IMG/VR virus record: IMGVR_UViG_2734482786_000005
Location: 1-16,166 of that record
Length of the DNA: 16,166 nucleotides
Reading direction: 5' to 3' (one strand)
From: a virus
Taxonomy: Duplodnaviria; Heunggongvirae; Uroviricota; Caudoviricetes
The notes below the pieces were generated by a model that worked only from the letters and a program-made list of their open reading frames with translations, did no database searches and had not been told where the DNA came from. Position numbers and translations under genes: made by a program. Shown here piece after piece: positions 1,369-16,166 of the stretch; positions within the stretch are counted from its first letter, which is position 1, and each line of letters starts with the position of its first letter.

Positions 1369-1444
1369 GCCGATATAGCTCAGTTGGTAGAGCAGCGCAT
1401 TCGTAATGCGAAGGTCGTAGGTTCGACTCCTATTATCGGCACCA
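1369..1444 (+). tRNA. thrW: tRNA-Thr, anticodon CGT (thrW-type)
   Basis: 76-nt sequence GCCGATATAGCTCAGTTGGTAGAGCAGCGCATTCGTAATGCG...GGTTCGACTCCTATTATCGGCACCA with the usual D-loop and T-loop motifs (GGTTCGA), a CGT anticodon in the loop, and a 3' CCA. Lies directly downstream of proA, as at the enterobacterial thrW locus. Confidence 0.93.
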
Positions 1445-1446
1445 TT
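1428..1446 (+). repeat. attL core (3' end of tRNA-Thr)
   Basis: TCCTATTATCGGCACCATT at the tRNA 3' end is repeated as TCCTATTATC-GCACCATT at 15615-15632. Confidence 0.75.
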
Positions 1447-1461
1447 CTAACGTTTCCCCAA

Positions 1462-1546
1462 GTCTACTAAAGTTCACTGAAACCCCTTATACTCTGCGCT
1501 TTACAGCCCCTTTTAGTATTTCTACGTCTACTAAAGTTCCCTGAAA
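1462..1546 (+). repeat. Two 21-bp direct repeats between tRNA and int (putative arm-type recombinase or accessory-factor sites)
   Basis: GTCTACTAAAGTTCACTGAAA at 1462-1482 and GTCTACTAAAGTTCCCTGAAA at 1526-1546, one mismatch, 64 bp apart. Confidence 0.5.
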
Positions 1547-1557
1547 TCTACGGTCGT

Positions 1558-1609
1558 TTGGGGGTACTTATGGGGGTATTTGTTGTTCGGTCTATAGGAG
1601 GTACCCCCA
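1558..1609. promoter_or_regulatory. TGGGGGTA-type motif cluster upstream of int (putative integrase arm sites or int promoter control)
   Basis: TGGGGGTAC at 1559-1567, TGGGGGTAT at 1571-1579, and inverted GTACCCCCA at 1601-1609. The same tandem pair, TGGGGGTACTTTTGGGGGTAT, recurs at 15532-15555 near attR. Confidence 0.45.
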
Positions 1610-1610
1610 A

Positions 1611-2825: not shown

Positions 2826-2952
2826 CTGGTTGAGTATACAGTAGTAGACTTTGAGCGATTAAGAAAAGGCTGTGTCTAGGGTCGCTCCCGAAAATCCGTA
2901 CACCTCGGCGGACTGGCACAGCCACTACGGTAGAGGGCGCAGAGGTGTGCGT

Positions 2953-3723
2953 ATGGTTGATATTCATGCCGAATTAAATGAATACAAAAAAGAGTTTATT
3001 TATTTACGTGATTTTCTTGATGATGTATTTAAAGTTGTTGATGCTAATATTTCAGAAGTCATTACCTGGATACTCAAGAGAATAAATACAGTAAATCCAG
3101 GCATTACCCTGTACACAGTAAATTCATTAAATGAGGTGGAGCTTTATTCTTCGGATCCGTTTGAGTGGAGATCTGATTTTAACTTTCTTTATGCAAAACT
3201 GGATACGGTTAGGGAGCGTGGTTGTTTACCTTGTGAGAGGGATGAGAGTGGTTTTCTGGTATCTGGTTATTGGGAAGATGCCGAATTTGAGGCAATGGGA
3301 TTCAGAAGAAATGAAATTTTCGAAATTTTCCCAGAAATCCTTGACGGGTTAATGAATCTGGAATGTGCTGACTCTTCTGAAAATAACGAGGCGCAAGGAA
3401 GCAATATTGAACATAAAGAGTTGCGTACAGATGATGATTTTTTATCCCGAATTGCAATGCTGGAAAAAGAAAATGAATCGTTAAGGGCGCGGGTAAATCA
3501 GTTAGAAAAGGAGCGCCCGATTTTGCTAAAGGCGTATCGTGATGATGACCCATTGTATCTGGCTATCGATATTAGAAACAGAGAGTGGGCCAATTACGAC
3601 CCAGAGAATGATCGCGCAACTAGGGGAAACCAGGGCGCGATTACTACTGAGCTTGAAAAACGAGGTTTTACCTCCCGACAGGCCGCATCTATTGAGCTTG
3701 TCGCCTGTCCTATCAAACGATGA
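2953..3723 (+). CDS. hypothetical protein (AT-rich accessory gene between int and alpA; predicted coiled-coil segment)
   Basis: ORF track gives 2872-3723. I prefer ATG at 2953 (MVDIHAELNEY...) because GAGGTG lies about 7 nt upstream. Sampled lines are clearly AT-rich. Contains an LEKENESLRARVNQLEKE heptad-like stretch. No family recognised. Confidence 0.55.
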   Translation: MVDIHAELNEYKKEFIYLRDFLDDVFKVVDANISEVITWILKRINTVNPGITLYTVNSLNEVELYSSDPFEWRSDFNFLYAKLDTVRERGCLPCERDESGFLVSGYWEDAEFEAMGFRRNEIFEIFPEILDGLMNLECADSSENNEAQGSNIEHKELRTDDDFLSRIAMLEKENESLRARVNQLEKERPILLKAYRDDDPLYLAIDIRNREWANYDPENDRATRGNQGAITTELEKRGFTSRQAASIELVACPIKR

Positions 3724-3763
3724 AGCCTTACCCTAGTGGTATCTCATGTTTTGTTCGCGTCTC

Positions 3764-3840
3764 ACCCTAAGGGTAATCAGACCTCACCCTTAGGGTATTT
3801 TTGTATGCTTTCCCATCAATTTTACTATTACCCTTAGGGT
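3764..3840. promoter_or_regulatory. Three copies of palindromic ACCCTWAGGGT upstream of alpA (putative operator array)
   Basis: ACCCTAAGGGT at 3764-3774, ACCCTTAGGGT at 3786-3796 and 3830-3840, centre-to-centre spacing 22 and 44 bp. A degenerate half-site (TACCCTAGTGGTA) lies at 3729-3741. Confidence 0.5.
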
Positions 3841-3943
3841 AAAAATATTCCCGATTACCATTAGACCTGAGAGCATTAAAATATTCGTTATTTCTGTGCC
3901 ATGATTACCTCGTCAAATTGAGTAGACGTTATGAGGTAAATAT

Positions 3944-4141
3944 ATGTCAAATACGCTTATTCGTTTAACGGAAGTTCAGCGTAGAACTGGATATAGCAAG
4001 GCATGGATTTATCGCCTTATGGGGCAAGGTAAATTTCCTGCATCAGTTAAAATTGGCTCGCGAGCGATTGCTTTCGTTGAGAGTGAAATTGACGAGTGGA
4101 TTAATCAGCGTATTGCGGAATCACGCGGAACAGCTACCTGA
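3944..4141 (+). CDS. alpA: AlpA-family phage/island transcriptional regulator (excision activator type)
   Basis: 65-aa ORF with GAGGTAAAT RBS. The sequence ...RLTEVQRRTGYSKAWIYRLMGQGKFP...VESEIDEWINQR matches the AlpA-family HTH pattern as I recall it (CP4-57 AlpA-like). Confidence 0.85.
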   Translation: MSNTLIRLTEVQRRTGYSKAWIYRLMGQGKFPASVKIGSRAIAFVESEIDEWINQRIAESRGTAT

Positions 4142-4219
4142 TTAAATGGCTACGGGGCCAGAAGTCCCAGCTATCCACCAGCAAATAAAAAGTAACTTAA
4201 TTCGATAGCAGGAGTTTTT

Positions 4220-5020
4220 ATGAAACTGCGAAAAACGCCCGTACAGGGGCAGGGCTTCGTTCGGCCTGAAAACCAGAGCCAACAAAATTTCTGCGAAATT
4301 ATCCCAGTTAGTTCCGGCGTTATTGGCGGGCGTGAAACCAATATTGTTAGCGCCAGAGCGTTGCATAAGGTGCTGGGTGTGAAGCGTGATTTCACAACTT
4401 GGATTAAAGGACGCATTGATGAGTACGGATTTAAAAAGGGCGTGGATTTTGAATTCGTAGAAAATTTGACCTCCCCCAATCCGGTGAGCGCAAAATCTCG
4501 CCAACGTGTAGAGCACGACTACCTGAGCACTATCAACATGGCGAAAGAACTGGCGATGGTCGAGCGCACCGAACAGGGGCGCGCCGTTCGTCAGTACTTT
4601 ATCAAATGCGAGGAGGAGCTACACAAGGTAGCGCCAGTGCGGTCCGCAGTGTTACGCCGGGAACTGAAAGCCCGTATCACAGTTGCCAGCTACTTTAAGC
4701 CAATGTGTGCCGCGCTGGAGGCGTACCGGGCTGAGCTGGGTAAAAACACTCTACAGCACCACTACACCACGGAAGCCAATATGCTGGCGCGTATCGTGCT
4801 GGGTGGCATGACTGCAAAACAGTGGGCGCAGGCGAACGGCATCACAGGCGAACCACGCGACCACATGAGCACGTTGCAGCTTGAGCATCTTTCTTACCTT
4901 GAGCAGAGCAATATCACGCTGATTGAGTTAGGCCAGGACTACCACCAGCGGAAAGCTGAATTAATTCGTCTTTCGCAGCGTTGGTTAGCCCGTCGCATGG
5001 AGGAAAACAGCCATGTGTAA
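4220..5020 (+). CDS. phage-associated protein, tentatively AntA/AntB-type (antirepressor-like) N-terminal domain
   Basis: 266-aa ORF with AGGAG 6-7 nt upstream of the ATG. The stretch SARALHKVLGVKRDFTTWIKGRIDEYGFKKGVDFEF resembles the AntA-type signature as I remember it. The assignment is tentative. Confidence 0.5.
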   Translation: MKLRKTPVQGQGFVRPENQSQQNFCEIIPVSSGVIGGRETNIVSARALHKVLGVKRDFTTWIKGRIDEYGFKKGVDFEFVENLTSPNPVSAKSRQRVEHDYLSTINMAKELAMVERTEQGRAVRQYFIKCEEELHKVAPVRSAVLRRELKARITVASYFKPMCAALEAYRAELGKNTLQHHYTTEANMLARIVLGGMTAKQWAQANGITGEPRDHMSTLQLEHLSYLEQSNITLIELGQDYHQRKAELIRLSQRWLARRMEENSHV

Positions 5021-5479
5021 CGCTCTGACCGTTACAAAAAGAAAAAGCGCCCCGTTGCCGGAGCGCCTTTGTGAACAAGTCGCTTACTGCGCCATATTGC
5101 TTACTGTCTACGAGGCAGATTATAGCGTTGTGGTCGTACAGAGTGAAGGCGCTGATCACTGTTATCACAGTAAGCCAGAAATGCAGAATATTTCGCTGCA
5201 AAATGCCGTTGGCCAAGCTGTCTGGAAAGCAAAAAATACTGCTGGTGGCGCGACTGATGCAATTTTTTCTGGTTGCCAGGTGCTGATCAATCTGATGTCT
5301 GATTTCGTTCTGGATAAAACAAAGGCGACCGCAGAGGGCCGCCAGTGGGAAAGCTACATACTTGAACGCACCACCAACAATGCCACATTTGCGGCTGGTG
5401 GGCAATGTGTCAGCTTTGCACCAATGACTCTAGATTTAACTGAGGGGCATTATGGTGAATATGCTGGCTTGCTGGTGGG

Positions 5480-5680
5480 CTATTCCTGCTCTTTAACATC
5501 GCCATGCCGCGATGTTTTCCAGGTATGTGGCCCTAATTTTGTGCGCCTGTACTCTTTCAGGAACGTCTCAAGGACAAACGCACACGGCGCGAATCTGTCT
5601 GATTCATGCTCGCGCGTCATATTTTTGCGACGTCTCTTCCGGGTTGGTGATGGTATTTTTGTTAACTTTTTATTGTTCAT
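5480..5680 (-). CDS. small basic hypothetical protein (66 aa)
   Basis: Minus-strand ORF. I prefer the internal ATG at 5678-5680 (MNNKKLTKIPSPTRKRRRKN...) because GGAGG lies 7 nt upstream. Lys/Arg-rich N-terminus. Lies downstream of, and co-oriented with, the RHH gene. Confidence 0.35.
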   Translation of the reverse strand: MNNKKLTKIPSPTRKRRRKNMTREHESDRFAPCAFVLETFLKEYRRTKLGPHTWKTSRHGDVKEQE

Positions 5681-5737
5681 AATGGCCTCCTGCATAGCAA
5701 TGCGCCGTAGTTCCTCACACCACGGCACTGATAGTTT

Positions 5738-5917
5738 TTATCCTTTAGATTCTATGCCGCGTTGCTGTAATTCTTTGCGGATTATTCGCTTTATCCAGGC
5801 TGCAAGAGAATCATCGCCGTCCTGTTGTTGTGCTTTTTCCATCTTTTCCCGTAAGTCAGGATCTAAACGGAACTGGAACGGAGGATTACCACGCCTTTCG
5901 CTTTTGTGTGCTGACAC
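5738..5917 (-). CDS. putative ribbon-helix-helix (Arc/MetJ-like) DNA-binding protein, 59 aa
   Basis: Not in the ORF track (under 60 aa, GTG start). My manual reverse-complement translation is VSAHKSERRGNPPFQFRLDPDLREKMEKAQQQDGDDSLAAWIKRIIRKELQQRGIESKG. GAGGTG lies 8 nt upstream of the GTG. The beta-strand then two helices pattern is typical of RHH repressors. It is divergent from the replication operon. Confidence 0.5.
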   Translation of the reverse strand: MSAHKSERRGNPPFQFRLDPDLREKMEKAQQQDGDDSLAAWIKRIIRKELQQRGIESKG

Positions 5918-5944
5918 GTCAATTACACCTCATGTAATGTATTT

Positions 5945-5960
5945 ATGTGTAATTACACAT
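5945..5960. promoter_or_regulatory. Perfect 16-bp palindrome ATGTGTAATTACACAT in the divergent intergenic region (putative operator)
   Basis: Self-complementary 16-mer flanked by further TGTAAT/ATTACA half-sites (5921-5970). Lies between the minus-strand RHH gene and the plus-strand operon starting at 6056. Confidence 0.55.
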
Positions 5961-6055
5961 TACACACAATCAGAGCAAAAAGTAAAGCCCTGCAAGTGTC
6001 GGTACCACTGGCAGGGCCTCTAACCACCAACGATAGCAATATTATCGAGGTAGCT

Positions 6056-6592
6056 ATGAGAAATTATACCCCACACCCGCAAGGGCGGGACTCGCACAAC
6101 CTGAATAAACCCGATGTAAAAAACCTGTTGCTCGCCACTGCCAGCCAGGGCTATGATTTATACGCACCAGCAAAATCTGGTGCCGGGATTGGCGTCCTGG
6201 TATTTAACGAAGCGCACAACACGCGCCCTGCGTGTTTTTTTGTGCCGGATAGTCACACCTTATCAATGGTGGGCTGTATGGGGGCGGAGCAATCCGCGCC
6301 GGGTTCTTCGTTAACCGGTTACGCCAACCCCGTACAGTCCACCGCCAGCGAAATTGGCGTTTCCTGCGGTGGGTTTATTAACCCTAACGAAGAGGCTGCC
6401 AATATGGCTACAGTCCCTACCCTTGTACATTCTCACACTGTCTTTATCTGGCGCTTTATCATCTTTGGCGCGTCAGAATCCCAAATCATCCACGTCACCG
6501 CCTGGACGGAACGCGAAGCGCGTAACCATTGCCCGTCCTGTTGTGTCGCTGTATTCGCCGCCCGTATTCGTCAGGAGGTGCGCCATGATTAA
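6056..6592 (+). CDS. hypothetical protein (first gene of replication-module operon)
   Basis: ORF track gives 5945-6592. I prefer ATG at 6056 (MRNYTPHPQG...) because GAGGT lies about 5 nt upstream and the longer version would overlap the operator region. No family recognised. Confidence 0.5.
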   Translation: MRNYTPHPQGRDSHNLNKPDVKNLLLATASQGYDLYAPAKSGAGIGVLVFNEAHNTRPACFFVPDSHTLSMVGCMGAEQSAPGSSLTGYANPVQSTASEIGVSCGGFINPNEEAANMATVPTLVHSHTVFIWRFIIFGASESQIIHVTAWTEREARNHCPSCCVAVFAARIRQEVRHD

Positions 6593-6878
6593 TCTGTCAA
6601 TCTCTGACCTTAACCGCATTCAGTATGACGAGAAATTTACCGGGAGCGTAAAAGCATTGAGGAAGCAGGCTGGATGTGCACGACTTATTAAGCCGTTAAG
6701 GTGTCATCATGATGATGATCCGCACTTTACCGGACGTATGGTGAATCACTACAAAAAAGGCGTTGAGGTATCCTCTGAACAGCTACGAGCTGGTTGCTGT
6801 TTCGGCACACCACCGGAATTTAGCGAACTGCTGACCCGTTGCGATTACCGGATCATTCAGGGGGAAAGTCATGGGTAA
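6585..6878 (+). CDS. hypothetical protein (97 aa)
   Basis: Internal ATG of track ORF 6354-6878, with AGGAGG 6 nt upstream. The start overlaps the stop of the preceding gene, suggesting translational coupling. MINLSISDLNRIQYDEK... Confidence 0.5.
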   Translation: MINLSISDLNRIQYDEKFTGSVKALRKQAGCARLIKPLRCHHDDDPHFTGRMVNHYKKGVEVSSEQLRAGCCFGTPPEFSELLTRCDYRIIQGESHG

Positions 6879-7071
6879 TCAGCCAGCAACAATGACAATT
6901 ACCCTGAATGTGCCAGATGATTTCACCGGGCGCGTACTGGTTTACCTGGATAAAGGGAAAGTGAAATCACAATGCCGACTGCGAAATAATGAAATAGTAA
7001 GTACGGTAGAAGGCTTTTCTGAACTCTGTATTCGTGCAGGAATAAAACCGGAACTGCTGACAGGAAAATAA
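6871..7071 (+). CDS. hypothetical small protein (66 aa)
   Basis: ORF with a GGGGGAAAG purine-rich RBS. Overlaps the previous stop by 8 nt. Sits in the operon with the primase-like gene. Confidence 0.45.
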   Translation: MGNQPATMTITLNVPDDFTGRVLVYLDKGKVKSQCRLRNNEIVSTVEGFSELCIRAGIKPELLTGK

Positions 7072-7075
7072 AACC

Positions 7076-7366
7076 ATGAAAAAGAAAAATTCTGGCTTTA
7101 CTGCCAGCGGCCTCTCTCGGTCTGCAATTCGCTCTGGCGATATTTACCGCGACACCAGACGTGGGGGACGAGTGGTTATTCGTCACGTTACGCCAGGAAA
7201 TATCACCTACCGCCGTGAGGCTTACGAATATGACTGCGTAATGCCGCGCCGTCAGTTTGAGCGTGATTTTATTCTGGTGGAAAACAAAGAACAGGCAGTA
7301 GCGAGACGTGCAGCCTCGAGTATTAAAAAAATCCGGGCAATGTTGGTAGCTGGGGGTAAGAAGTGA
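7076..7366 (+). CDS. hypothetical protein (96 aa)
   Basis: ORF immediately upstream of the replication protein, with its stop overlapping that gene's GTG start. Basic protein. No family recognised. Confidence 0.5.
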   Translation: MKKKNSGFTASGLSRSAIRSGDIYRDTRRGGRVVIRHVTPGNITYRREAYEYDCVMPRRQFERDFILVENKEQAVARRAASSIKKIRAMLVAGGKK

Positions 7367-9495
7367 AAAACGCGCCGAATTTAAAATATCAGCCGAAGGA
7401 TAAATTCACTGAGGCAATCATTTTTGCCGGGATGGATGCTTACGCTCACGCTCAACACTGGATTGAAAGCGAAGGACGGAAATATGGCGATAGCGTGCCG
7501 CCTGTTTACCTGGGGCCAAAGCAACTGGCAGATCTGGCTAATATCCGCATTGTCGACGATGAACGTCGTTTTGCGCGCGTCTATCTCGCGGGGGAGATCG
7601 AACCAATCCAGATTAATGCTATCGCTGAAAGGCTGGCGCTGGCTGGCGTAAAGGATGCGAAATTATACAAAGGTATCCCTGACCAGGATCCGGAGAACTG
7701 GCGCGACTACCTGCAACGGATCCGTGAACAGGCAGAGCGCGGGGAAACCCTGACTGAAGGAATCGGAATAGCTGGTGGCTCACCCGGTAAAACAGGCCCC
7801 ATGAAACCGCATATTACCGAAAAAGACGGGGCGCTCTGGTATATCGAGCCAATCCCCAACACCAGGGCAGAGGAGATGAATTATAAAGAAACCTGGCTGA
7901 GTGACCGGATGCGCACGGCAGGTATTGGTAATGACGGAAGGGAGGCGTATCTGATTATTGAAATGATCCCGGAAGGGACACAAAAAATTATTTACGAAGC
8001 GATGCCGCGCAATGAAATCGGTATGCCCGCAGGATGGGCGCGATTACGTGGGCGGGGAGTTGCAATCACTACCAGCGCCCATTTATTGAACAAACTGGCG
8101 GAATACCTGCAACGTCATGGAGATCGCACGGTGTGGGAGGTCACATCAACAGCAGGTTGGCATTGTGGAGCCTATGTTATGCCTGATGGCGAGGTGATTG
8201 GTGTGCCTGATCGTCCCGTAGCATTCTGCGGCGGATCTGCCGCCATCAAAGGCTATATTGTCAGGGGCACGGTGCATGAATGGCGAAATAATGTTGCTTC
8301 TCTGATGCGTGGCAATCACTCAATGATGCTTGGGGTGCTGGTCGGGCTGGCAGCCCCGCTAAATTCCCTTGTGGGGGGTAGTTGTTTTGGTATTCATCTT
8401 TTCGCGCAGTCGTCAGCGGGGAAAACCACGACTGTGGAGGCCGCCACCAGCCTTTATGGCGACCCTGAAATGCTTAAACTCTCGTGGGATGCCACCCGGC
8501 ACGGGTTGACAGTGGAAGCCGCTGCACGTAATGACGGTTTTATCCCTATTGATGAAATTGGTCAGGGAGGAAGGGTTAATGACATTGCGCAATCCGCCTA
8601 CAGCCTGTTTAACGGTGTGGGCAGGATTCAGGGGCGCAAGGACGGCGGCAATCGTGCGGTAATGCGCTGGAAAATAGCGGCACTAAGCACCGGAGAAGAA
8701 GATTTTGAAACCTTCCTGTTAAAAGGGGGAATTGCCCCAAAGGCAGGGCAACTGGTGCGACTGCTAAGCATTCCCTTTACCGATACAACGGTGTTTAACG
8801 GTTATGACGATGGTGATCAACATGCCAGGGCCATAAAGCGACTTTCATCAAATTATTGTGGCGCTGCGGGACGTGAGTGGGTGCGCTGGTTATCCGCTCA
8901 CAAGGAGTTGGCTATCAACACCACTTCAGATAAAGAAAATGCCTGGCTGGGAAATCTGCCTGAAAATGCCTCGTCACAGGTAAGGCGAGTGGCATCGCGA
9001 TTCGCCATGCTGGATGCAGCCGGAGAGCTTGCTACCGCAATTACTGGCTGGACAGCTGAAGAATGCCGGGAAGCAACGCAACGGGCTTTTGATGACTGGC
9101 TACAGGATTTCGGGCTGGAAAACCGGGAAAAATATCAGGTCATCAGTCGCGCCCGTGACTTTATTCAGCGCCATGCCCTGAGTCGTTTTCAGCCTTATAC
9201 CTACGGGAAAAGCAATGGGGATATGGATAACCACTATGCATCCCGTATAAGCAATCTTGCAGGCTATCTTGTCAGCGGTAAGCGTGAGGATGGAAAACCC
9301 GAATATCACATTATCCCGTCAGTGTTTGATAGCGAAATTTTATGCGGTATATCCAGGAACTTTGGGTGTCAGGCGCTGGAAGAAGCCGGAATGCTGGTTT
9401 GTGCAGAACCTGGTCGCTGGACATCGAAAACAGTGAAGATTAACGGAACACAGCAGCGATTTATCGTGCTGATTGATCAGGCAGAAGACGAATAG
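7363..9495 (+). CDS. replication protein, primase/helicase-like with SF3-type P-loop NTPase domain (DUF927-like, P4 alpha / PICI Pri-Rep analogue)
   Basis: 710-aa ORF with GTG start at 7363 (the first ATG is further in at 7432). Walker A-like FAQSSAGKTT and a downstream acidic IPIDEIG (Walker B-like) motif. Size and position, immediately upstream of an iteron array, fit a replication initiator. Confidence 0.7.
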   Translation: MKNAPNLKYQPKDKFTEAIIFAGMDAYAHAQHWIESEGRKYGDSVPPVYLGPKQLADLANIRIVDDERRFARVYLAGEIEPIQINAIAERLALAGVKDAKLYKGIPDQDPENWRDYLQRIREQAERGETLTEGIGIAGGSPGKTGPMKPHITEKDGALWYIEPIPNTRAEEMNYKETWLSDRMRTAGIGNDGREAYLIIEMIPEGTQKIIYEAMPRNEIGMPAGWARLRGRGVAITTSAHLLNKLAEYLQRHGDRTVWEVTSTAGWHCGAYVMPDGEVIGVPDRPVAFCGGSAAIKGYIVRGTVHEWRNNVASLMRGNHSMMLGVLVGLAAPLNSLVGGSCFGIHLFAQSSAGKTTTVEAATSLYGDPEMLKLSWDATRHGLTVEAAARNDGFIPIDEIGQGGRVNDIAQSAYSLFNGVGRIQGRKDGGNRAVMRWKIAALSTGEEDFETFLLKGGIAPKAGQLVRLLSIPFTDTTVFNGYDDGDQHARAIKRLSSNYCGAAGREWVRWLSAHKELAINTTSDKENAWLGNLPENASSQVRRVASRFAMLDAAGELATAITGWTAEECREATQRAFDDWLQDFGLENREKYQVISRARDFIQRHALSRFQPYTYGKSNGDMDNHYASRISNLAGYLVSGKREDGKPEYHIIPSVFDSEILCGISRNFGCQALEEAGMLVCAEPGRWTSKTVKINGTQQRFIVLIDQAEDE

Positions 9496-9527
9496 CACAA
9501 CCTACGCTCGCAGAGGGTCAAAAATCG

Positions 9528-9801
9528 CGGGATATGCGGGATATCGGGATATGAAAAATATATTGCAGAAATATCAGTTATTTATGTGTTGTTGTCGTAT
9601 CCCGCTGTATCCCGCCGTATCCCGGTATTTAGGTTTACGAGTGGTTGTAAAACAAACAAAATAACCGTATCCCGGAATGTATCCCGCAATATCTTATTGA
9701 TGCATAAGCAAAAAAAAACTTACCGGGATATGGCGGGATATGAAAAATCACATAACACCATGAAATAAATAAGTTTTTTTGTTCATATCCCGATATCCCG
9801 G
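9528..9801. repeat. Iteron array (putative origin of replication): about 12 copies of CGGGATAT / ATATCCCG in both orientations, with A/T tracts
   Basis: Direct tandem CGGGATAT(G/C) at 9528-9553; GTATCCCG(C/G) three times at 9598-9624 on a roughly 10-bp period; further copies at 9668-9687, 9724-9742 and 9785-9801. Poly-A and poly-T runs at 9710-9718, 9774-9780 and 9805-9826. Track ORFs 9473-9664 and 9586-9768 lie on these repeats and are not believed. Confidence 0.65.
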
Positions 9802-9952
9802 TAAAAAATGTTTTTTTACGCCTTATAGAGTACAGAAAAAAGATTGTTCAAATTTTGTATTACGATTGACTACTGTCAGCCATCCCACCCGGAAAAGGCA
9901 TAAAAGCTGACAGGTAACTGACAATGAGACAGTTTTATTTTTACGTGCCGAT

Positions 9953-10510
9953 ATGACGGCAACAATAATGGGGCAGAGCATGACAAAACTGACCATTAAC
10001 AGAAAACCGAAAGGTATTTACGGCACGCCGCAGAAAACGACGCAGGCGGCACAGAAGCAGGATAAAACCACATCGGCACATAAAGTGATGCCCGGTAACC
10101 AGAAAGCGCAGCAGAAGCCCACAGGGGCGACACCGTGGCGGCATATGACCAAACGCCAGCGCAAAAACCGCAGGCGCGTTAACCGCCTCACTGAGTTGTG
10201 GCCTGACTTATTCTGCAGGGAAGCACCGAAGCCACTTAAGGTGGGGATATTCAATGACCTGGTGCAGGATATCGCCGTCAGGGAGCTGGCATTCGGTCCA
10301 GGGGCATTACGTGCGTCACTGGCATCTTATGCGCAGTCACCGCGCTATTACCGAGCCCTGGTTGCTGGTGGGGTGCGCTATGACCTGAAAGGCCAGCCGT
10401 GCGGCGAGGTGACACCACAGAAACAGAACGAGGCAGAAATGCGGCTGATGGCGCTGAATGAGAAGCGCAAACGTCAGCGCCGGGCAGCAAAGGAGAAAAC
10501 AGGCGCATGA
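9953..10510 (+). CDS. ProQ/FinO-domain RNA-binding protein
   Basis: 185-aa ORF. The segment LWPDLFCREAPKPLKVGIFNDLVQDIA...LRASLASYAQSPRYYRALVAGGVRYDLKGQPCGEV parallels the ProQ N-terminal FinO-like domain as I recall it (PLKIGIF..DLV...R.DL.G.PCGE). The start is uncertain among ATGs at 9953, 9968 and 9980. Confidence 0.7.
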   Translation: MTATIMGQSMTKLTINRKPKGIYGTPQKTTQAAQKQDKTTSAHKVMPGNQKAQQKPTGATPWRHMTKRQRKNRRRVNRLTELWPDLFCREAPKPLKVGIFNDLVQDIAVRELAFGPGALRASLASYAQSPRYYRALVAGGVRYDLKGQPCGEVTPQKQNEAEMRLMALNEKRKRQRRAAKEKTGA

Positions 10511-10794
10511 TTCACGACAGCAAAGCGGAAGCACTGGAAGCGCGTGGTCTGTACCGGAGAGCGGCGGAAAGATGGGCAGAAGTCATAATGCGAGTGGATG
10601 GTGATAAGGCTCGGGAGGAGGCGGCAAAACGTCGCGCGGAATGTATCCGCAAGGCAGCCCGCCCACCAGCAAAGCTGGATAATTTCGAAGAGATGCGCGA
10701 AACCATCAGCCAGGCACATGCTGGTATGGGATTACATCAGCCCAATGGTAAGGCATTCAGGAAATACCCCGGGGCAAAAAATTACAATCCATGA
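10507..10794 (+). CDS. PerC-family transcriptional regulator-like protein
   Basis: 95-aa ORF whose start overlaps the previous stop (ATGA). The N-terminus MIHDSKAEALEARGLYRRAAERWAEV matches my recollection of PerC/Pch-family proteins. Confidence 0.65.
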   Translation: MIHDSKAEALEARGLYRRAAERWAEVIMRVDGDKAREEAAKRRAECIRKAARPPAKLDNFEEMRETISQAHAGMGLHQPNGKAFRKYPGAKNYNP

Positions 10795-10798
10795 GAGA

Positions 10799-10826
10799 GG
10801 CCGGGATTTTACCCGGCTTTTTTGTG
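10799..10826 (+). terminator. Rho-independent terminator-like hairpin after the PerC-like gene
   Basis: GGCCGGGATTTTACCCGGC stem-loop followed by TTTTTTG, immediately 3' of the stop at 10794. Confidence 0.6.
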
Positions 10827-10995
10827 TCAGCAAAAAAGCCCACAGACAGCAGTGTTGCGGGGGGGGGTTTCAGGTGGTTGAAGTCATTGGGAAGAACGTG
10901 AACATTACGCGCAAATGTTTCACAAATTGCAATAAAATGGATTGTTATTTCAGTTTATGCAATCATGAGCATTGCTTTGATCAGGAGAGATGATT

Positions 10996-11163
10996 ATGAG
11001 AAAAGCCAGCGTAAAACCCGTTTTACTCGCTCGTGAGCAGATTGAAGCATTACAGCGCATCCAGGACGAAGAGCGTCAAAAATCTGTGCTTGGTGTGGCC
11101 CCGTCGATTCATGTTATTGCCAGGCAACTGATGGACAAGGCACTTAAAGAGGTGAAACTGTGA
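10996..11163 (+). CDS. small hypothetical protein (55 aa)
   Basis: Not in the ORF track (under 60 aa). AGGAG at 10984-10988, 7 nt before ATG 10996. My translation is MRKASVKPVLLAREQIEALQRIQDEERQKSVLGVAPSIHVIARQLMDKALKEVKL. The stop overlaps the GTG start of the next ORF. Confidence 0.45.
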   Translation: MRKASVKPVLLAREQIEALQRIQDEERQKSVLGVAPSIHVIARQLMDKALKEVKL

Positions 11164-11432
11164 AATTAAATATCAGAGTGGATAAACGCCAGCTATGGCA
11201 GAAAAAAGAGAACAGTGAGGCATTCAGGGATTTGCTGGTGGAAAATCTTCAGCACCGTTTCAGTGGAGAGCTGCCAGACGCGCTGGGGAAAAAACTGGAA
11301 TCTCTGACGGTGGAAATTGGCGATTATGGTTTTGTTGATGTTGAAAGCACGACTGCCAACACAGAAATCGTAAAACAGGTCGTCAACGATGTAATGAAAA
11401 CCACGCTTAGCCAGCCATCCTGGCGTAACTGA
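11160..11432 (+). CDS. hypothetical protein (90 aa)
   Basis: GTG start overlapping the previous stop (GTGA), suggesting coupling. Acidic protein. No family recognised. Confidence 0.45.
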   Translation: MKLNIRVDKRQLWQKKENSEAFRDLLVENLQHRFSGELPDALGKKLESLTVEIGDYGFVDVESTTANTEIVKQVVNDVMKTTLSQPSWRN

Positions 11433-11531
11433 ATCCGCAAGGGGCGGTGATTGCCCCTCTCCGCCATACCCACAACGAATTCCTTTTTCGCATGAAGTGA
11501 ATGTTTATCGTATATGCATGAGGTGAGCCAC

Positions 11532-12056
11532 ATGTTGATGAGTAAAGCCGAATACGCCAAATACAAAGGTGTAAGCCGCCAGACAGTTTACGACTGGATC
11601 GAGAAAGGCGAGGTGGTCATGTCGGGTAAAAAAATTGATATGGAGGCTACAGAGTGGCGAAACAGCCCATCATCACAGGGAAAAGACACTGTTTCTGAAA
11701 TGTGGCCTGAGAGAACGCTGGAAATGACGTGGGGCGAGTTCTGGAAAGCTGTCAGGGACAGAGACGGTAAAATTCCTGCGCCAGTAACGGACGATGACAT
11801 AAAGCAGCGTGTGCAGGATGCAGCCGGGGAATTAGGCTGGGAAGCACACTTTCTTGATGATGGTGCTATCTGCCTTGAGGATGATGAAGGACAGCATTAC
11901 TTTGAACAATACAATTTGCGGGGTAATGCCAGGCTGGCAATTCGTATGCTGCGCTGTGAACTCTGCTATGTTGCAGGTGATTATCCTGATGAACTTGAAT
12001 CATGGAGCGAGGCAGGACTAAACGCCCTGGCTGAATGGGAGAAAACAGGTCATTAA
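11532..12056 (+). CDS. putative packaging-redirection protein with terminase small-subunit-like N-terminal HTH (Rpp-like), tentative
   Basis: Track ORF 11514-12056. I prefer ATG at 11532 because GAGGTG lies 6 nt upstream. N-terminal SKAEYAKYKGVSRQTVYDWIEKGEVV resembles the lambda Nu1 N-terminal DNA-binding segment as I recall it (KKQLADIFGASIRTIQNWQEQGMPV). About 175 aa, acidic C-terminus. Followed by a repeat array. Confidence 0.45.
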   Translation: MLMSKAEYAKYKGVSRQTVYDWIEKGEVVMSGKKIDMEATEWRNSPSSQGKDTVSEMWPERTLEMTWGEFWKAVRDRDGKIPAPVTDDDIKQRVQDAAGELGWEAHFLDDGAICLEDDEGQHYFEQYNLRGNARLAIRMLRCELCYVAGDYPDELESWSEAGLNALAEWEKTGH

Positions 12057-12063
12057 CGGCCGC

Positions 12064-12390
12064 AAAAAGTGTCAAGTTGAGCAGCTTGCAAGGTTGACAC
12101 TTTACACTCTGAACACGAAAAAGTGTCAACCTCGCTGTAAGCCCCGCCATTACTGGTCTTGCGCCATGTTTGCCACATCAAAAGGCCGAAAAAATCGCGA
12201 AAAGTGTCAAGTTGCCATGCTTAGAAATGCTAAGTTTTGTTAAGGTTTTTCGCGGAAAAGTGTCAACTCAACCTAACGGATCTTAACGCTCACGCACAAC
12301 AGCTGCAGCCAACGTGTAAAGGACTGATGCGAAGCAGGGCAGCTGTCAGCCTGTTATGGTTTGTTATGCCTTACCTGGGGAAAGTGTCAA
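12064..12390. repeat. Array of six AAAGTGTCAA motifs (five direct, one inverted), candidate packaging (cos/pac-type) or protein-binding site
   Basis: Copies at 12066-12075, 12120-12129, 12201-12210, 12257-12266 and 12381-12390 on the plus strand, and an inverted copy TTGACACTTT at 12094-12103. Most are preceded by CGCGAAA or CGCGGAA. A partial copy lies at 12437-12452. Confidence 0.6.
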
Positions 12391-12451
12391 CCGCTACCGT
12401 TTCAGAAAGCTTCAATTGCAGAGCGTTGGCAGCACCTGTCAAAACTTGTCA

Positions 12452-12480
12452 CCCGCCGGCACAGCCAGCGGGAATTTTTT
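12452..12480 (+). terminator. terminator-like GC hairpin plus T-run
   Basis: CCCGC...GCGGG stem followed by AATTTTTT at 12473-12480. Lies between the plus-strand backbone genes and the convergent minus-strand cargo operon. Confidence 0.4.
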
Positions 12481-12599
12481 GCTCTAAACGCTCTAAGTTA
12501 CAGTTGATGTGATCTGTAAACTGCGGTTGCAACTAGTAATCGTATAAAACCATCAGTTGCAGTTTTACCTAACTATAGTCACAATGATAGTTTATATAA

Positions 12600-14099
12600 T
12601 TATACATTGTATGCGAGGTAATCATATAATGCTAAAAGTTTCCGATAATCAGTATGAGATTTGTCCTTAAACTCCCGGACATGTTTTTCTAAATCTTCTA
12701 AGGGTATATGTTCATCATGAGCATTGAAGAAAATAATATTTTGTAATTTGCTATAACTATCAGAATGTTTAGCGTAAATATCTTCAATGGTATGTTCTAC
12801 TATTCTTTGATTCTTGGGTAACCTGGAATAGTTTAGATTTATTAATCTTTTTTGATTTTTCATTAATGATGTTAAGCATTTAACACCTGGGCTGAATTTA
12901 TGAAAAGCATAAGCTGGGAAATATGATCTTTTATTGATGGTGAACTTGTCAAGCAACTCGACAACATGTGATTCCTTATTTGAAATTAGATCAAAATAGT
13001 TTTCCATCATCTCCTGAGGTGTTTGCATGTATATTTTTATAGAGTTAACAGAACCGACGGCTAGAACAAGCTCATCATTTCTGAGTGTCTCCAAATCCCC
13101 AACAAGTTTTACTTTTATGTCTCCACCTTCCTTTATTTTACCAAAGATACTCTCTACTCTGCGTATATCCATTACCGAAACTGGTAAGTGGAGTTGAGCA
13201 AGTTCTTTATATATATCTGAGAAGTTATCTGTAACGATTTTATTAATGCTAATTAACCCTGCATCTTCTACTTCGAGATCGTGAGAGACAATGTTTAAAT
13301 TATCAATACCTTCTTCTCTTTCAATAAGAAGGAAGTTGTTTTTTATTTTTTCTGCAATTTTAGAACGAGGTGGTATGTATGAGAATATTGTTTTTAATAC
13401 TTTTTTTATATTCGGATCACCTATTCTATATCCCATAAATATAATCGGATTATGTATAAACAAGGATAGGAGTTGAGCACGAATTAATTCATATTTTTTA
13501 TCAAAATGAATATAGTCATCACTGGTTATTATTATGGATTCTGGTTTGCTAACGCATCCGTGAATTTTATAAACAGAACCATAAGGATTGCTTAAAAGTA
13601 TATCATTTCCAATAACAGGATTATAACCAATTGCACTTTCGATAAAATTATCATAGTTTGTCGTAATCACAGAGGCAATGTTTTTTGAGGCCTTTACTAA
13701 TTCAGATATTTCATCTTGAACTCCTAATTTTAAATCTGTGATATTAACCACCTGTGAAAGATAGATTTTAAATCTGCTGATATTTGAGGATATATCTTCT
13801 GACTCGTAGTATAAGTCATTGATATATTTGAACTTTCCGTTCCTGTCTGCTTTTAGTGTTGCATCAAAAATTTGCTCTAATTGCGTTGCTACTTTTGGAA
13901 GGTCTACAATACCATCTTTATTGCTGTTTTCTCTGACAAGATCTTTATAGAGTTCATTAGAATTTGTCAGGTCAATACTAATTTTCTCTAAGAGTGCCGG
14001 CCAGCTATAAGAAATTGATAAGTATCTCATGCTGAAACCTGCTCCAACAAATAATATTGGGTGGTTTCTGTAGCCTTTTAGAAAATCCGTTATATTCAT
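12600..14099 (-). CDS. SIR2-like domain protein (putative NAD+-consuming defence effector) with uncharacterised roughly 200-aa C-terminal region
   Basis: 499-aa minus-strand ORF with GGAGG 5 nt upstream of the ATG at 14097-14099. Motifs checked codon by codon: ILFVGAGFS (aa 15-23, DNA about 14031-14057), TTNYD (aa 146-150, DNA 13650-13664), KIHG with His180 (DNA 13557-13565). AT-rich: sampled lines are about 27-35% G+C. Confidence 0.75.
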   Translation of the reverse strand: MNITDFLKGYRNHPILFVGAGFSMRYLSISYSWPALLEKISIDLTNSNELYKDLVRENSNKDGIVDLPKVATQLEQIFDATLKADRNGKFKYINDLYYESEDISSNISRFKIYLSQVVNITDLKLGVQDEISELVKASKNIASVITTNYDNFIESAIGYNPVIGNDILLSNPYGSVYKIHGCVSKPESIIITSDDYIHFDKKYELIRAQLLSLFIHNPIIFMGYRIGDPNIKKVLKTIFSYIPPRSKIAEKIKNNFLLIEREEGIDNLNIVSHDLEVEDAGLISINKIVTDNFSDIYKELAQLHLPVSVMDIRRVESIFGKIKEGGDIKVKLVGDLETLRNDELVLAVGSVNSIKIYMQTPQEMMENYFDLISNKESHVVELLDKFTINKRSYFPAYAFHKFSPGVKCLTSLMKNQKRLINLNYSRLPKNQRIVEHTIEDIYAKHSDSYSKLQNIIFFNAHDEHIPLEDLEKHVREFKDKSHTDYRKLLALYDYLAYNV

Positions 14100-14190
14100 T
14101 TGACCTCCGAGATATATTAGCGGTAATCATTAAAATTTGTAAGAACACAGCTCAAGTATGTATTTAGCTGTAGAGATAAGAATTTACTTG

Positions 14191-15318
14191 TTATTGACCA
14201 TTTGGATAGTAAATTTTCATAAGCCTCTCTTTTTCTTTGTTGAATTCTTTATCAAAATCAATTTTTTTGTCTAAATTAGAATGTAAGTCATTTAACGCTT
14301 TAACAAGAACCCAAGCGCTGTGGTGGATGAATGGGTTTAATCCAATAATGTTTCCTGCAGAATTATCGTCAACTTTCTCAACTGCTAAAATCGCTTGGAT
14401 TTTTTTACAGCTTTCCTGAATATTCCAATCTGAAACATGTAGTAATAATGCAGATAAAGCCATGAGTGGGTTGTTTGCTTTAATAGATGTAGGGGTGTAA
14501 CTAATAATCATACGGAGTCGAGGGTGGTAGTCTCGAATCAGTCTCGCCATTCGAGTAGCTATCTCATATTTTTCGTTGAGAATTGATCTGTCAAATGTTG
14601 ACGTCCCAGAGTCTTTAATTAATATAGTTCTTGCTTTTTTGACTACTGATTTAAGTCTTACATTCCAAAGCTCAGGATTCTCATGACGGTCTAGATAGAA
14701 TTGAGGATGCTTGAAATAAAGAGATTGATATACTTCCTCGTTGATATCGAACCAACTTTTGTTTATGGCGCTGAGATCGACAACATAATTATCATTGTTT
14801 CTCTTATATCTAATCAATGAGGCCTTTGCAAGGTAGATTATGTGAGGGCTTAAATTAAATGTAAAAGTGCCTTTTTCTCTTAAATCTAAGAACCATTGGC
14901 GCATGTTACGTATATCTTCTTGCGTAAAAATCTTCTCCTGAATTCCCGCACAGACCATAAGACCTATTAAGCGTGTCGCTTCAGAACCCGAGCGCATAAA
15001 ATCAATTTGGCCTTCATTTGAAACAACGTTCAACTTATCATCGCCAGTATAAAAATCACAAAATGGGAGGTGAGAGTCTTTACCTAGATTGTCTCGAAAT
15101 GCAAAGTGTGCTTGCTTTACAACTTTGCCGTTACTGAGAGATCTTCCTTCCGAAACGTAATAACCACCAGAAACATTGCATGCCGGGCATTCAACATCCT
15201 CTTTAACAAAATCTCTAAAACTTAGAGAAGGATCTGAGTTGCTACGTTCGAAAAGGTTTTCCAACTGCTTAGCATCCAGCTCACGCTTAAATTTTCTAGA
15301 ATAGGCCGTTATCGTCAT
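14191..15318 (-). CDS. hypothetical protein, partner of the SIR2-like gene (376 aa from the preferred start)
   Basis: Track ORF 14191-15384. I prefer ATG at 15316-15318 (MTITAYSRKF...) because AAGGAG lies 6 nt upstream. Co-oriented with the SIR2-like gene and 91 bp upstream of it. AT-rich. Contains CPACN ... LPFCDF cysteines. I see no Walker A and no TIR-like signature. Confidence 0.65.
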   Translation of the reverse strand: MTITAYSRKFKRELDAKQLENLFERSNSDPSLSFRDFVKEDVECPACNVSGGYYVSEGRSLSNGKVVKQAHFAFRDNLGKDSHLPFCDFYTGDDKLNVVSNEGQIDFMRSGSEATRLIGLMVCAGIQEKIFTQEDIRNMRQWFLDLREKGTFTFNLSPHIIYLAKASLIRYKRNNDNYVVDLSAINKSWFDINEEVYQSLYFKHPQFYLDRHENPELWNVRLKSVVKKARTILIKDSGTSTFDRSILNEKYEIATRMARLIRDYHPRLRMIISYTPTSIKANNPLMALSALLLHVSDWNIQESCKKIQAILAVEKVDDNSAGNIIGLNPFIHHSAWVLVKALNDLHSNLDKKIDFDKEFNKEKERLMKIYYPNGQ

Positions 15319-15531
15319 TTCGGTCTCCTTTCGAAGGGAGCTTAACTTTATCATAGGATGATCATAAAGGGAGCTGTACGGCAAACATCACTAAGGTTGG
15401 GCCTGAAACACAAATTCCCTAAGTGCAATTTTGACGTCTAACTTACTTGATGTGCTTCAAGGCGGTTCTTACATTGTGGTATCAACAACAATAGAATGTT
15501 TTTTAAACAATTTAGATAGCAACAAGCAAGT

Positions 15532-15555
15532 CTGGGGGTACTTTTGGGGGTATCT
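15532..15555. promoter_or_regulatory. TGGGGGTAC-TTT-TGGGGGTAT motif pair near attR (matches the motif pair near int)
   Basis: CTGGGGGTACTTTTGGGGGTATCT at 15532-15555 matches TGGGGGTACTTATGGGGGTAT at 1559-1579. Confidence 0.45.
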
Positions 15556-15614
15556 AATGATTGCGTAATAGTTTTTTTATATACATATCAATGTGTTGAT
15601 TTCTACAATTTGTT

Positions 15615-15632
15615 CCTATTATCGCACCATTT
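15615..15632 (+). repeat. attR core (degenerate copy of the tRNA-Thr 3' end)
   Basis: CCTATTATC-GCACCATT against tRNA CCTATTATCGGCACCATT. Identical apart from a missing G. Confidence 0.7.
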
Positions 15633-15755
15633 AAATCAAGTAGTTACCCCATATTTAAATACACCACGTTTCCTCCTGTGCCGTATTTGTGCCATTGTAA
15701 CCCTGGCAATTCATCAAAATACTGTTCTGACATCAGGCAATGCAGGTGCAGACAT

Positions 15756-16166
15756 TTAAGCCAATTGCTGCCGCCATTCCTTGACGTGGTCAATCAGGGC
15801 GCGGAGCTTTGGTGCAATATTGCGACGCTGTGGGAAATACAGATAGAAGCCTGGAAATTGTGGAAGAAAGTCATCAAGCAGCGATACAAGCTTACCGCTT
15901 TCAATATATGGCCTGAAAGTTTCCTGAGTGGCAATTGTTATTCCTCCGCCGGCAAGAGCCAGCCTCAACATCAGACGCAGATCATTAGTCGTAATCTGCG
16001 GTTCAATCGCAAGGTCGAAAGTTCTCCCGTTTTCTTCAAATGGCCAGCGATAAGGCGCAACCTCCGGGGACTGACGCCAGCCGATACACTTATGGGTATT
16101 TCCCCCGGAGGCGAGAAAGCGCTCTCCACGCCCGGCCGCAAGGATCAGGACGACGGGGGCAGGCAT
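15756..16166 (-). CDS. LysR-family transcriptional regulator, C-terminal effector-binding portion (gene continues beyond window end)
   Basis: Open frame running from the window edge to a stop at 15756-15758. The C-terminal sequence ...LALAGGGITIATQETFRPYIESGKLVSLLDDFLPQFPGFYLYFPQRRNIAPKLRALIDHV is characteristic of LysR substrate-binding domains. Core-like G+C. Confidence 0.7.
   Translation of the reverse strand: MPAPVVLILAAGRGERFLASGGNTHKCIGWRQSPEVAPYRWPFEENGRTFDLAIEPQITTNDLRLMLRLALAGGGITIATQETFRPYIESGKLVSLLDDFLPQFPGFYLYFPQRRNIAPKLRALIDHVKEWRQQLA

What the first reader, a model, noticed from the sequence alone, without database searches (positions are those of the whole stretch)
12600..15318. 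AT-rich two-gene cargo operon encoding a SIR2-like protein and an unassigned partner: candidate anti-phage NAD-depletion system
Two co-oriented minus-strand genes with strong RBSs occupy the attR-proximal accessory end of the island. They are far more AT-rich than the backbone, which points to separate acquisition. The downstream protein (12600-14099) carries the SIR2-type triad GAGFS / TTNYD / HG that I verified codon by codon, the same signature seen in ThsA, DSR and SIR2-HerA type effectors. The upstream 376-aa partner shows no TIR-like motif and no Walker A, so the pair does not match Thoeris or SIR2-HerA as I know them. Satellite and PICI accessory regions are established hotspots for defence systems, so a defence role is the leading hypothesis; the gene pairing may be undescribed.
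Basis: partly seen in the sequence, partly recalled or inferred. Interest (0 to 1): 0.9.

Follow-up and report, generated by a model that had tools for sequence, protein, structure and literature searches.

The report
Solo SIR2 defence gene plus unrelated neighbour
The two AT-rich genes are real, but they are not a conserved pair: one is a widespread stand-alone SIR2 enzyme already listed as an untested anti-phage candidate, and the other belongs to a small uncharacterised family that sits alone or beside many different defence systems.

Summary
Two co-oriented minus-strand genes (12600-14099, 499 aa; 14191-15318, 375 aa) with strong ribosome-binding sites have 32% and 37% GC, against about 50% in the backbone. 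They lie at the attR end of a tRNA-Thr-integrated satellite-like island. The GAGFS, TTNYD (N148) and HG (H180) motifs are present.

The 499-aa protein is a true SIR2_2 protein. It matches PADLOC candidate PDC-S25 end to end (E=1.9e-139). Its closest solved relatives are the NADases DSR2, ThsA, KomC and Avs5.

The pairing is not conserved. None of 68 species-level loci with a partner homologue has a SIR2 gene within 8 kb. Of 49 viral-contig loci with a SIR2 homologue, only the four full-length, at least 95% identical copies keep the partner. Elsewhere the SIR2 gene is solo, in prophage moron sites, islands and the S. aureus rlmH site.

The partner has a confident model (pLDDT 91) with no fold match, an invariant CCHC motif and no domain fusions. 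It sits alone or next to Gabija, Hachiman, CBASS or CARF genes.

Best reading: two independent cargo genes. The SIR2 gene is most likely an autonomous NAD-depleting abortive-infection effector. The partner's function is unknown. No experiment exists for either.

The parts
12600..14099 (-). Gene for a 499-aa SIR2-family protein. It has an N-terminal SIR2 NADase domain (about residues 1-300: GAGFS at 19-23, N148, H180), a conserved but low-confidence linker (about 325-357) and a C-terminal all-helical domain (about 360-499).
   Evidence: PF13289, E=2e-22; PDC-S25, E=1.9e-139, full length; invariant residues; DSR2, ThsA, KomC and Avs5 are the closest solved structures; model, pLDDT 83.
14100..14190 (-). 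91-nt intergenic spacer with the SIR2 ribosome-binding site (GGAGG). It contains a weak 7-bp hairpin, and the scan called neither a terminator nor a promoter. It is compatible with co-transcription here but does not prove it.
   Evidence: It differs at 4 of 91 positions between the two E. coli alleles.
14191..15318 (-). Gene for a 375-aa protein of an uncharacterised family. The N-terminal beta-rich part carries invariant C44, C47, H83 and C87 (a putative zinc site). The rest is helical, with invariant Q133/R140/W142 and G322-N323-x2-G326-x-N328-P329-F330.
   Evidence: alignment A1; model, pLDDT 90.8, pTM 0.86; no fold match; no Pfam hit above cut-off, no PADLOC or NCBIfam hit; phrog_12525, unknown function; 214 clusters, no fusions.
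15616..15631 (.). attR core (CTATTATCGCACCATT), a one-indel copy of the tRNA-Thr 3' end. It marks the right end of the island, about 300 bp beyond the partner gene's start codon.
1430..1446 (.). attL core at the 3' end of tRNA-Thr(CGT) (gene at 1369-1444). It marks the left end of the island, followed by the integrase gene (1611-2825).

Best explanation
The region holds two independently evolving cargo genes placed side by side in the attR-proximal accessory slot of a tRNA-Thr-integrated satellite-like island (int, AlpA, Ash, Icd-like, DUF927 primase). Gene 1 encodes a stand-alone SIR2 protein of the PADLOC PDC-S25 family. Inferred mechanism: a single polypeptide whose conserved C-terminal helical domain senses or gates, and whose N-terminal SIR2 domain (N148/H180) hydrolyses NAD+ once a phage cue is met. 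This would starve the infected cell and abort the infection, by analogy with DSR2 and ThsA. What is shown: domain identity, catalytic residues, fold, solo distribution on prophages, satellites and islands, and purifying selection. What is inferred: NADase activity, the trigger and the anti-phage phenotype. Gene 2 is an autonomous 375-aa protein with no fold match, a putative zinc site and unknown biochemistry. It recurs alone or immediately beside many unrelated defence systems. It is probably a separate defence-island gene rather than a SIR2 cofactor.
For: SIR2 identity: PF13289 E=2e-22. PDC-S25 model PDLC04968 E=1.9e-139 over residues 2-498. A PDB profile search finds DSR2 (1.4e-11) and ThsA (1.7e-11), with TTNYD and HG aligned to the DSR2 catalytic motifs. 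Foldseek top hits are DSR2, KomC, ThsA and Avs5. Solo SIR2: homologues at 86%, 73%, 57% and 48% identity stand alone in prophages (between antiterminator Q and holin), among toxin-antitoxin genes, and right after S. aureus rlmH. Other E. coli alleles are also solo. Of 49 IMG/VR loci, only the four full-length loci at 95% identity or more contain a partner-profile hit. Partner without SIR2: no SIR2 hit within 8 kb in any of 68 GTDB species loci. Partner homologues stand without SIR2 on IncF-type plasmids (68% identical) and in SSU5-like phage-plasmids (29-35% identical); SIR2 has no plasmid matches in E. coli, whereas the partner has 18. E. coli A65EC keeps an intact SIR2 gene after IS1 deleted the partner. 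Partner neighbourhoods: Gabija of at least four PADLOC subfamilies, Hachiman HamB, a SAVED-2TM CBASS effector, a CARF protein, PDC-S02 and an AriA/Old-like ATPase. About 16 loci have no co-oriented neighbour within 250 bp.
Against: Nothing here was tested experimentally: neither NADase activity nor phage protection. In this locus the genes are co-oriented and 91 nt apart. No promoter or terminator was called between them. The cassette is inherited as a unit in 20 E. coli genomes across two island backbones. A locally evolved functional coupling therefore cannot be excluded. The partner's repeated operon-like position beside different defence systems, with gaps of 0-120 nt, fits a promiscuous accessory or regulator as well as it fits an independent gene. 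PDC-S25 is only a candidate, and I found no paper validating it.
Confidence: 0.62

Rival explanations
1. The partner is a promiscuous accessory module (a sensor, regulator or adaptor) that plugs into whichever defence effector lies next to it. In this cassette it would modulate expression or activation of the SIR2 NADase.
For: Partner-family genes lie co-oriented and 0-120 nt from Gabija (several subtypes, on either side), Hachiman, a CBASS SAVED-2TM effector, a CARF protein and, here, SIR2. The window shows no terminator between the genes. The architecture is fixed, with no fusions, as expected of a self-contained module.
Against: About a quarter of loci have the gene with no co-oriented neighbour. 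Examples are Shewanella, Acinetobacter, IncF plasmids and SSU5 phage-plasmids. No DNA-binding or known sensor domain was detected. Gabija, Hachiman and PDC-S25 are overwhelmingly found without it.
Confidence: 0.2
2. One reading: an obligate two-gene SIR2 system, in which the partner senses infection and activates the SIR2 effector in a Thoeris-like or SIR2-HerA-like way.
For: The genes are co-oriented with strong ribosome-binding sites and a 91-nt spacer. Both are AT-rich and both are under purifying selection. The cassette is conserved in 20 E. coli genomes.
Against: Co-occurrence fails outside the clade at 94-100% DNA identity, from both sides: 0 of 68 loci, and 4 of 49 loci that are all near-identical copies. 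The SIR2 family is conserved over its full length, including its C-terminal domain, without the partner. The GC content of the two genes differs (0.316 against 0.368). SIR2 is retained intact after IS1 removed the partner.
Confidence: 0.1
3. Neither gene is anti-phage. The SIR2 protein would be a deacylase or ADP-ribosyltransferase, or the partner an anti-defence or maintenance factor serving the mobile element itself.
For: There are no functional data. The partner is conserved in SSU5-like phage-plasmids, among small early or accessory genes, and on plasmids, where anti-defence genes are also common.
Against: The closest sequence and structure relatives of the SIR2 domain are all defence NADases. 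It sits at prophage moron sites and in satellite cargo slots. The partner's neighbours are defence systems in at least 24 of 64 loci.
Confidence: 0.08

Closest known systems
PADLOC phage-defence candidate PDC-S25 (single-gene SIR2 candidate)
   Same: End-to-end HMM match (E=1.9e-139, residues 2-498 against profile positions 9-515 of 517). The length is the same, and neighbourhood analysis here confirms the single-gene organisation.
   Different: Nothing distinguishes it: this is a member. The candidate itself has no published validation that I could find. In this locus it happens to have a co-oriented upstream neighbour.
DSR2 (defence-associated sirtuin 2)
   Same: It is the best PDB sequence and fold match for the SIR2 domain, and the catalytic Asn and His align. 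DSR2 is a single-protein NADase with a C-terminal sensing region, which is the mechanistic model adopted here.
   Different: DSR2 is about 1,000 aa with a long C-terminal domain that binds the phage tail tube. This protein is 499 aa with a 140-aa helical C-terminal domain that matches nothing in DSR2, and it has no PADLOC DSR hit.
ThsA of type I Thoeris
   Same: Similar size (476-485 aa) and an N-terminal SIR2 NADase domain. The PADLOC ThsA1 model hits residues 140-304 (4.8e-21).
   Different: The C-terminal domain is all-helical rather than SLOG. No TIR (ThsB) gene lies nearby, and the upstream partner has no TIR signature.
SIR2-HerA (Gao_19 / Nezha)
   Same: A SIR2 effector next to a second gene in an operon-like arrangement.
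   Different: The partner has no Walker A motif and no HerA or ATPase hit, and it shows no conserved co-occurrence with the SIR2 gene.
KomC (Kongming) and Avs5 SIR2 domains
   Same: SIR2 fold similarity (TM-score normalised to KomC about 0.65).
   Different: Those SIR2 domains act inside multi-gene systems (KomABC) or STAND-NTPase architectures (Avs5). Neither is present here.

Membership tests
SIR2 superfamily (Pfam SIR2_2, PF13289) | Profile match above the curated gathering score | tested here: met
   80.2 bits against a cut-off of 24.5, E=2.1e-22, residues 143-244.
SIR2 superfamily (Pfam SIR2_2, PF13289) | Glycine-rich NAD-binding motif plus catalytic Asn and His | tested here: met
   GAGFS at 19-23, N148 and H180. 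All are invariant in 30 homologues. TTNYD and HG align with the DSR2 catalytic motifs.
SIR2 superfamily (Pfam SIR2_2, PF13289) | SIR2 Rossmann-type fold | tested here: met
   Foldseek against the PDB finds DSR2, KomC, ThsA and Avs5 at E of 1e-8 to 1e-10 and probability 1.00. The model has pLDDT 83.
SIR2 superfamily (Pfam SIR2_2, PF13289) | NAD+ hydrolase activity | not testable with these tools
   This needs an enzyme assay or NAD+ measurement during infection.
PADLOC PDC-S25 | Full-length match to the PDC-S25 HMM | tested here: met
   PDLC04968 E=1.9e-139, protein residues 2-498 against profile positions 9-515 of 517.
PADLOC PDC-S25 | Single-gene organisation with no conserved partner | tested here: met
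   Solo. Of 49 viral-contig loci, only the four full-length copies at 95% identity or more contain a partner-profile hit.
PADLOC PDC-S25 | Demonstrated anti-phage activity | not testable with these tools
   I found only a listing as a 'phage defense candidate' and no validation paper.
Thoeris (ThsA/ThsB) | ThsA with a C-terminal SLOG ligand-binding domain | tested here: not met
   ThsA models align only to residues 138-304. The C-terminal domain is all-helical. There is no SLOG Pfam hit.
Thoeris (ThsA/ThsB) | Adjacent TIR-domain ThsB gene | tested here: not met
   The partner has no TIR hit in Pfam or PADLOC. No TIR protein is found among the island ORFs scanned.
SIR2-HerA | Adjacent HerA-type ATPase with a Walker A motif | tested here: not met
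   The partner has no Walker A motif and no HerA or ATPase hit.
DSR1/DSR2 | A protein of about 1,000 aa or more with a long C-terminal sensor domain | tested here: not met
   The protein is 499 aa. Only the SIR2 domain aligns with DSR2. There is no DSR model hit in PADLOC.
   0 of 68 partner loci have SIR2 within 8 kb. Only 4 of 49 SIR2 loci, all at 95% identity or more, have the partner. In E. coli, 18 plasmid copies of the partner family stand against no plasmid SIR2.
P4-like satellite / PICI (host element) | Integrase, AlpA-type regulator and primase or replication module, integrated at a tRNA with flanking att repeats. For P4 proper, also psu, delta and sid. | tested here: inconclusive
   Integrase, AlpA, AntA, Ash, DUF4222, a DUF927 primase-like protein, ProQ/FinO and PerC are found, and an Icd-like protein is annotated in the near-identical island of E. 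coli BCE049. attL and attR are found. No Psu, Sid, Delta or packaging-redirection family was detected, so the subtype is unresolved.

The most novel reading that the evidence does not exclude
The 375-aa partner founds an undescribed defence-associated family. It has a confidently predicted structure with no fold match, an invariant CCHC zinc-type motif and a GNxxGxNPF motif. It would be either a new single-gene anti-phage system or a universal add-on that couples to very different effectors (Gabija, Hachiman, CBASS, CARF, SIR2). In this cassette it could give the SIR2 NADase a new trigger.
Probability: 0.35. Interest if true: 0.65.

Novelty: new member of a known kind. Interest (0 to 1): 0.38.

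Why it matters
For the SIR2 gene, the result is a tidy placement. It is one more mobile-element-borne copy of a very widespread (more than 1,650 clusters) single-protein SIR2 candidate that nobody appears to have tested. A satellite copy with its native promoter in E. coli is a convenient clone for validating PDC-S25 and finding its trigger. The pairing that made the finding look exciting dissolves on comparison. The less expected product is the neighbour: a compact family with a confident model, no fold match and no annotation in Pfam, NCBIfam, PADLOC or the PDB. Its genes sit immediately beside known defence systems in at least a third of species-level loci. That makes it a reasonable candidate for experimental screening.

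Tried and rejected

2. Hidden fusions or remote relatives of the partner. An exhaustive profile search of 1.84 billion representatives found 214 clusters. All are about 360-400 aa or fragments, with no fusions.

3. 'GajC'. The literature has a GajC, but it is a MazF-like protein that replaces GajA in type II Gabija. It is unrelated to this family.

4. The 394-aa divergent neighbour of the 86%-identical SIR2 homologue (L085) is not a partner homologue (BLASTP E=0.35).

5. Literature searches for PDC-S25, PF13289, the accession numbers, and PICI/P4 combined with SIR2 found no validation of this family.

6. ORF 12237-12512 (+) showed no Pfam hit and no similarity to the island integrase. I treat it as non-coding iteron DNA.

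7. The promoter and terminator scan of 12300-15800 was no better than shuffled sequence and does not settle whether the two genes are co-transcribed.
Full report
**Observation**

- The first is 12600-14099 (499 aa).
- The second is 14191-15318 (375 aa from the ATG).
- All 37 aligned homologues of the second protein begin at the same MTITAYS methionine, so the upstream TTG of the mechanical ORF is not the start.
- Both genes have strong Shine-Dalgarno sequences: GGAGG 5 nt upstream and AAGGAG 7 nt upstream.
- Both are much more AT-rich than the rest of the window. GC is 0.316 and 0.368, against 0.48-0.56 for the integrase, primase, ProQ and proA genes.
- GAGFS (19-23), TTNYD (N148) and HG (H180) are present.
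- The partner has no Walker A motif.

**Context**

- proA and tRNA-Thr(CGT) (1369-1444) precede an integrase gene (1611-2825).
- Downstream lie genes for AlpA, AntA, Ash, DUF4222, a DUF927 primase-like protein, ProQ/FinO and PerC, and an Icd-like protein is annotated in the near-identical E. coli island.
- The tRNA 3' end (CTATTATCGGCACCATT) recurs with one indel at 15616-15631.
- The island therefore spans about 1430-15631, and the two genes occupy its attR-proximal end.
- The island looks like a satellite, but I found no psu, sid or delta genes and no packaging genes. Its subtype (PICI or P4-like) stays open.
- In complete E. coli genomes the cassette occurs in 20 of 5,426, always at this thrW locus. 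It sits on two different island backbones, at 99.8-99.9% and 94.6% identity.
- Between the two alleles, dN/dS is 0.11 for the SIR2 gene and 0.10 for the partner, so both are functional genes.

**The SIR2 protein**

- Pfam SIR2_2 scores 80 bits against a cut-off of 24.5.
- The best PADLOC hit is the single-gene candidate PDC-S25, matched end to end (E=1.9e-139). ThsA models match only residues 138-304.
- A profile search of the PDB finds DSR2 and ThsA (about 1e-11), with TTNYD and HG aligned to the DSR2 catalytic motifs.
- The AlphaFold model (pLDDT 83) has a SIR2 domain, a conserved low-confidence stretch (about 325-357) and an all-helical C-terminal domain.
- Foldseek matches DSR2, KomC, ThsA and Avs5 through the SIR2 domain only.
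- The family is large (more than 1,654 clusters). It stays about 500 aa long and 47-50% identical over its full length across Proteobacteria, Firmicutes and Bacteroidota. N148 and H180 are invariant.
- The protein is not ThsA: it has no SLOG domain and no ThsB neighbour. It is not SIR2-HerA: there is no ATPase. It is not DSR1/2: it is half their size.

**Is the pair a system?**

I tested co-occurrence from both sides.

From the partner side:
- A scan of one genome per GTDB species gave 68 loci with homologues at 25-66% identity.
- phmmer with the window SIR2 protein, run on all ORFs within 8 kb, found none.
- Closer partner homologues are also solo. The 69%-identical allele sits on IncF-type plasmids. 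Shewanella and Acinetobacter copies are monocistronic.

From the SIR2 side:
- Of 49 IMG/VR loci, only the four full-length loci at 95% identity or more contain a partner-profile hit.
- Homologues at 86%, 73%, 57% and 48% identity stand alone. They lie in prophages (one between antiterminator Q and the holin), among toxin-antitoxin genes, and directly after S. aureus rlmH.
- Other E. coli SIR2 alleles are solo too.
- In E. coli the SIR2 gene has no plasmid matches, whereas the partner family has 18.
- Strain A65EC keeps an intact SIR2 gene after IS1 removed the partner.

The pairing is therefore a recent juxtaposition in one island lineage, not a conserved architecture. In this locus the 91-nt spacer has no called terminator or promoter. 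Co-transcription, and even locally evolved coupling, cannot be excluded.

**The partner**

- The family has no annotation in Pfam (only a sub-threshold DUF7516 hit), NCBIfam, PADLOC or the PDB. PHROGs lists it as phrog_12525, function unknown.
- Invariant residues are C44, C47, H83 and C87, which suggest a zinc site. Q133/R140/W142 and a GNxxGxNPF motif are also invariant.
- An exhaustive profile search of 1.84 billion representatives finds only 214 clusters. All share one architecture and none is fused to another domain.

Its neighbourhoods are informative:
- GajA-GajB-partner, or partner-GajA followed by a further co-oriented gene, occurs with at least four Gabija subfamilies.
- Other arrangements are HamA/HamB-partner, SAVED-2TM-partner, CARF-partner, PDC-S02-partner and an AriA/Old-like ATPase followed by the partner.
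- Gaps are typically 0-120 nt.
- By my count, at least 24 of 64 non-redundant loci have a recognised defence gene within 4 kb.
- About 16 loci have no co-oriented neighbour at all.
- Homologues are also conserved in SSU5-like phage-plasmids.

This pattern fits an autonomous defence-island gene or a promiscuous accessory. It does not fit a dedicated SIR2 cofactor.

**Mechanism (inferred)**

The SIR2 protein most likely acts alone. The C-terminal domain would hold the enzyme off until a phage cue appears. The SIR2 domain would then hydrolyse NAD+ and abort the infection, as shown for DSR2 and ThsA in the literature those structures come from. No step of this was tested here. The partner's biochemistry is unknown. 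Metal-dependent binding of nucleic acid or protein through the CCHC domain is only a guess.

**Novelty and score**

- The SIR2 gene is a new member of a catalogued but unvalidated candidate family.
- The pairing is not a new system.
- The partner family is the only possibly new element.
- Interest is 0.38 overall. The most novel reading still open is that the partner is a new defence or accessory family. I give that a probability of about 0.35 and an interest of 0.65 if true.

Noticed in passing
window 12600-12715 and 15024-15124; L138 (NZ_HG994850.1 3846000-3876000): Roughly 540-550 of 5,426 complete E. coli genomes (UTI89, Nissle 1917, ATCC 25922, ABU 83972, NRG 857C and others) retain only a 116-bp 3' remnant of the SIR2 gene (92% identity) and a 101-bp remnant of the partner gene (95% identity). 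In the one genome inspected (L138) the remnants lie about 6.4 kb apart, and the interval holds IS1, the vacuolating autotransporter toxin gene vat and a MarR-family regulator gene. The vat island at thrW thus looks like a replacement of the interior of this SIR2-partner cassette.
   Followed up: partly
window 12066-12390: Six exact copies of AAAGTGTCAA (five on the + strand, one on the - strand; 0.01 expected by chance) lie in the non-coding stretch between orf180 (11514-12056) and the 3' end of the SIR2 gene. This looks like an iteron array, possibly the island's origin or a regulator-binding region. The mechanical ORF at 12237-12512 lies inside the array and has no family hit.
   Followed up: partly
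window 1560-1579 and 15534-15553; also 1462-1482 and 1526-1546: A 20-mer, GGGGGTACTT(A/T)TGGGGGTAT, occurs once just inside each island end, in the same orientation (0 expected by chance). A 21-nt direct repeat, GTCTACTAAAGTTC(A/C)CTGAAA, lies next to attL. These are probably integrase or excisionase arm-type binding sites.
   Followed up: no
L079-L081 (S. aureus assemblies), gene at 5001-6497: A 48%-identical full-length homologue of the SIR2 protein sits immediately downstream of the 159-aa SPOUT methyltransferase gene (rlmH/orfX), the known SCC integration site. An ISL3 transposase gene follows it. This cluster was seen on at least 81 contigs.
   Followed up: no
L041, L042, L045, L050, L038, L075, L044, L052, L063, L066, L030, L036, L051, L058 (partner at about 8001-9140 in most): Partner-family genes sit co-oriented and within about 0-260 nt of complete Gabija operons of at least four PADLOC subfamilies, on either side. 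They also follow Hachiman HamB, a SAVED-2TM CBASS effector and a CARF protein. This could reflect an undescribed accessory gene or simple defence-island clustering.
   Followed up: partly
L137 (Salmonella phage SSU5, gene SSU5_107 at 5001-6200); plasmid hits H36-H52: A 29-35%-identical homologue of the partner is conserved in SSU5-like phage-plasmids of Salmonella, Klebsiella, E. coli and Enterobacter. About 200 PLSDB records match at under 60% identity. In SSU5 the gene lies among small hypothetical genes.
   Followed up: no
L087 (E. coli A65EC, NZ_CP182331.1): An IS1 insertion and deletion removed the partner gene and the downstream chromosomal genes up to yagU, but left the SIR2 gene intact. 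This is a natural 'SIR2-only' derivative of the cassette.
   Followed up: yes
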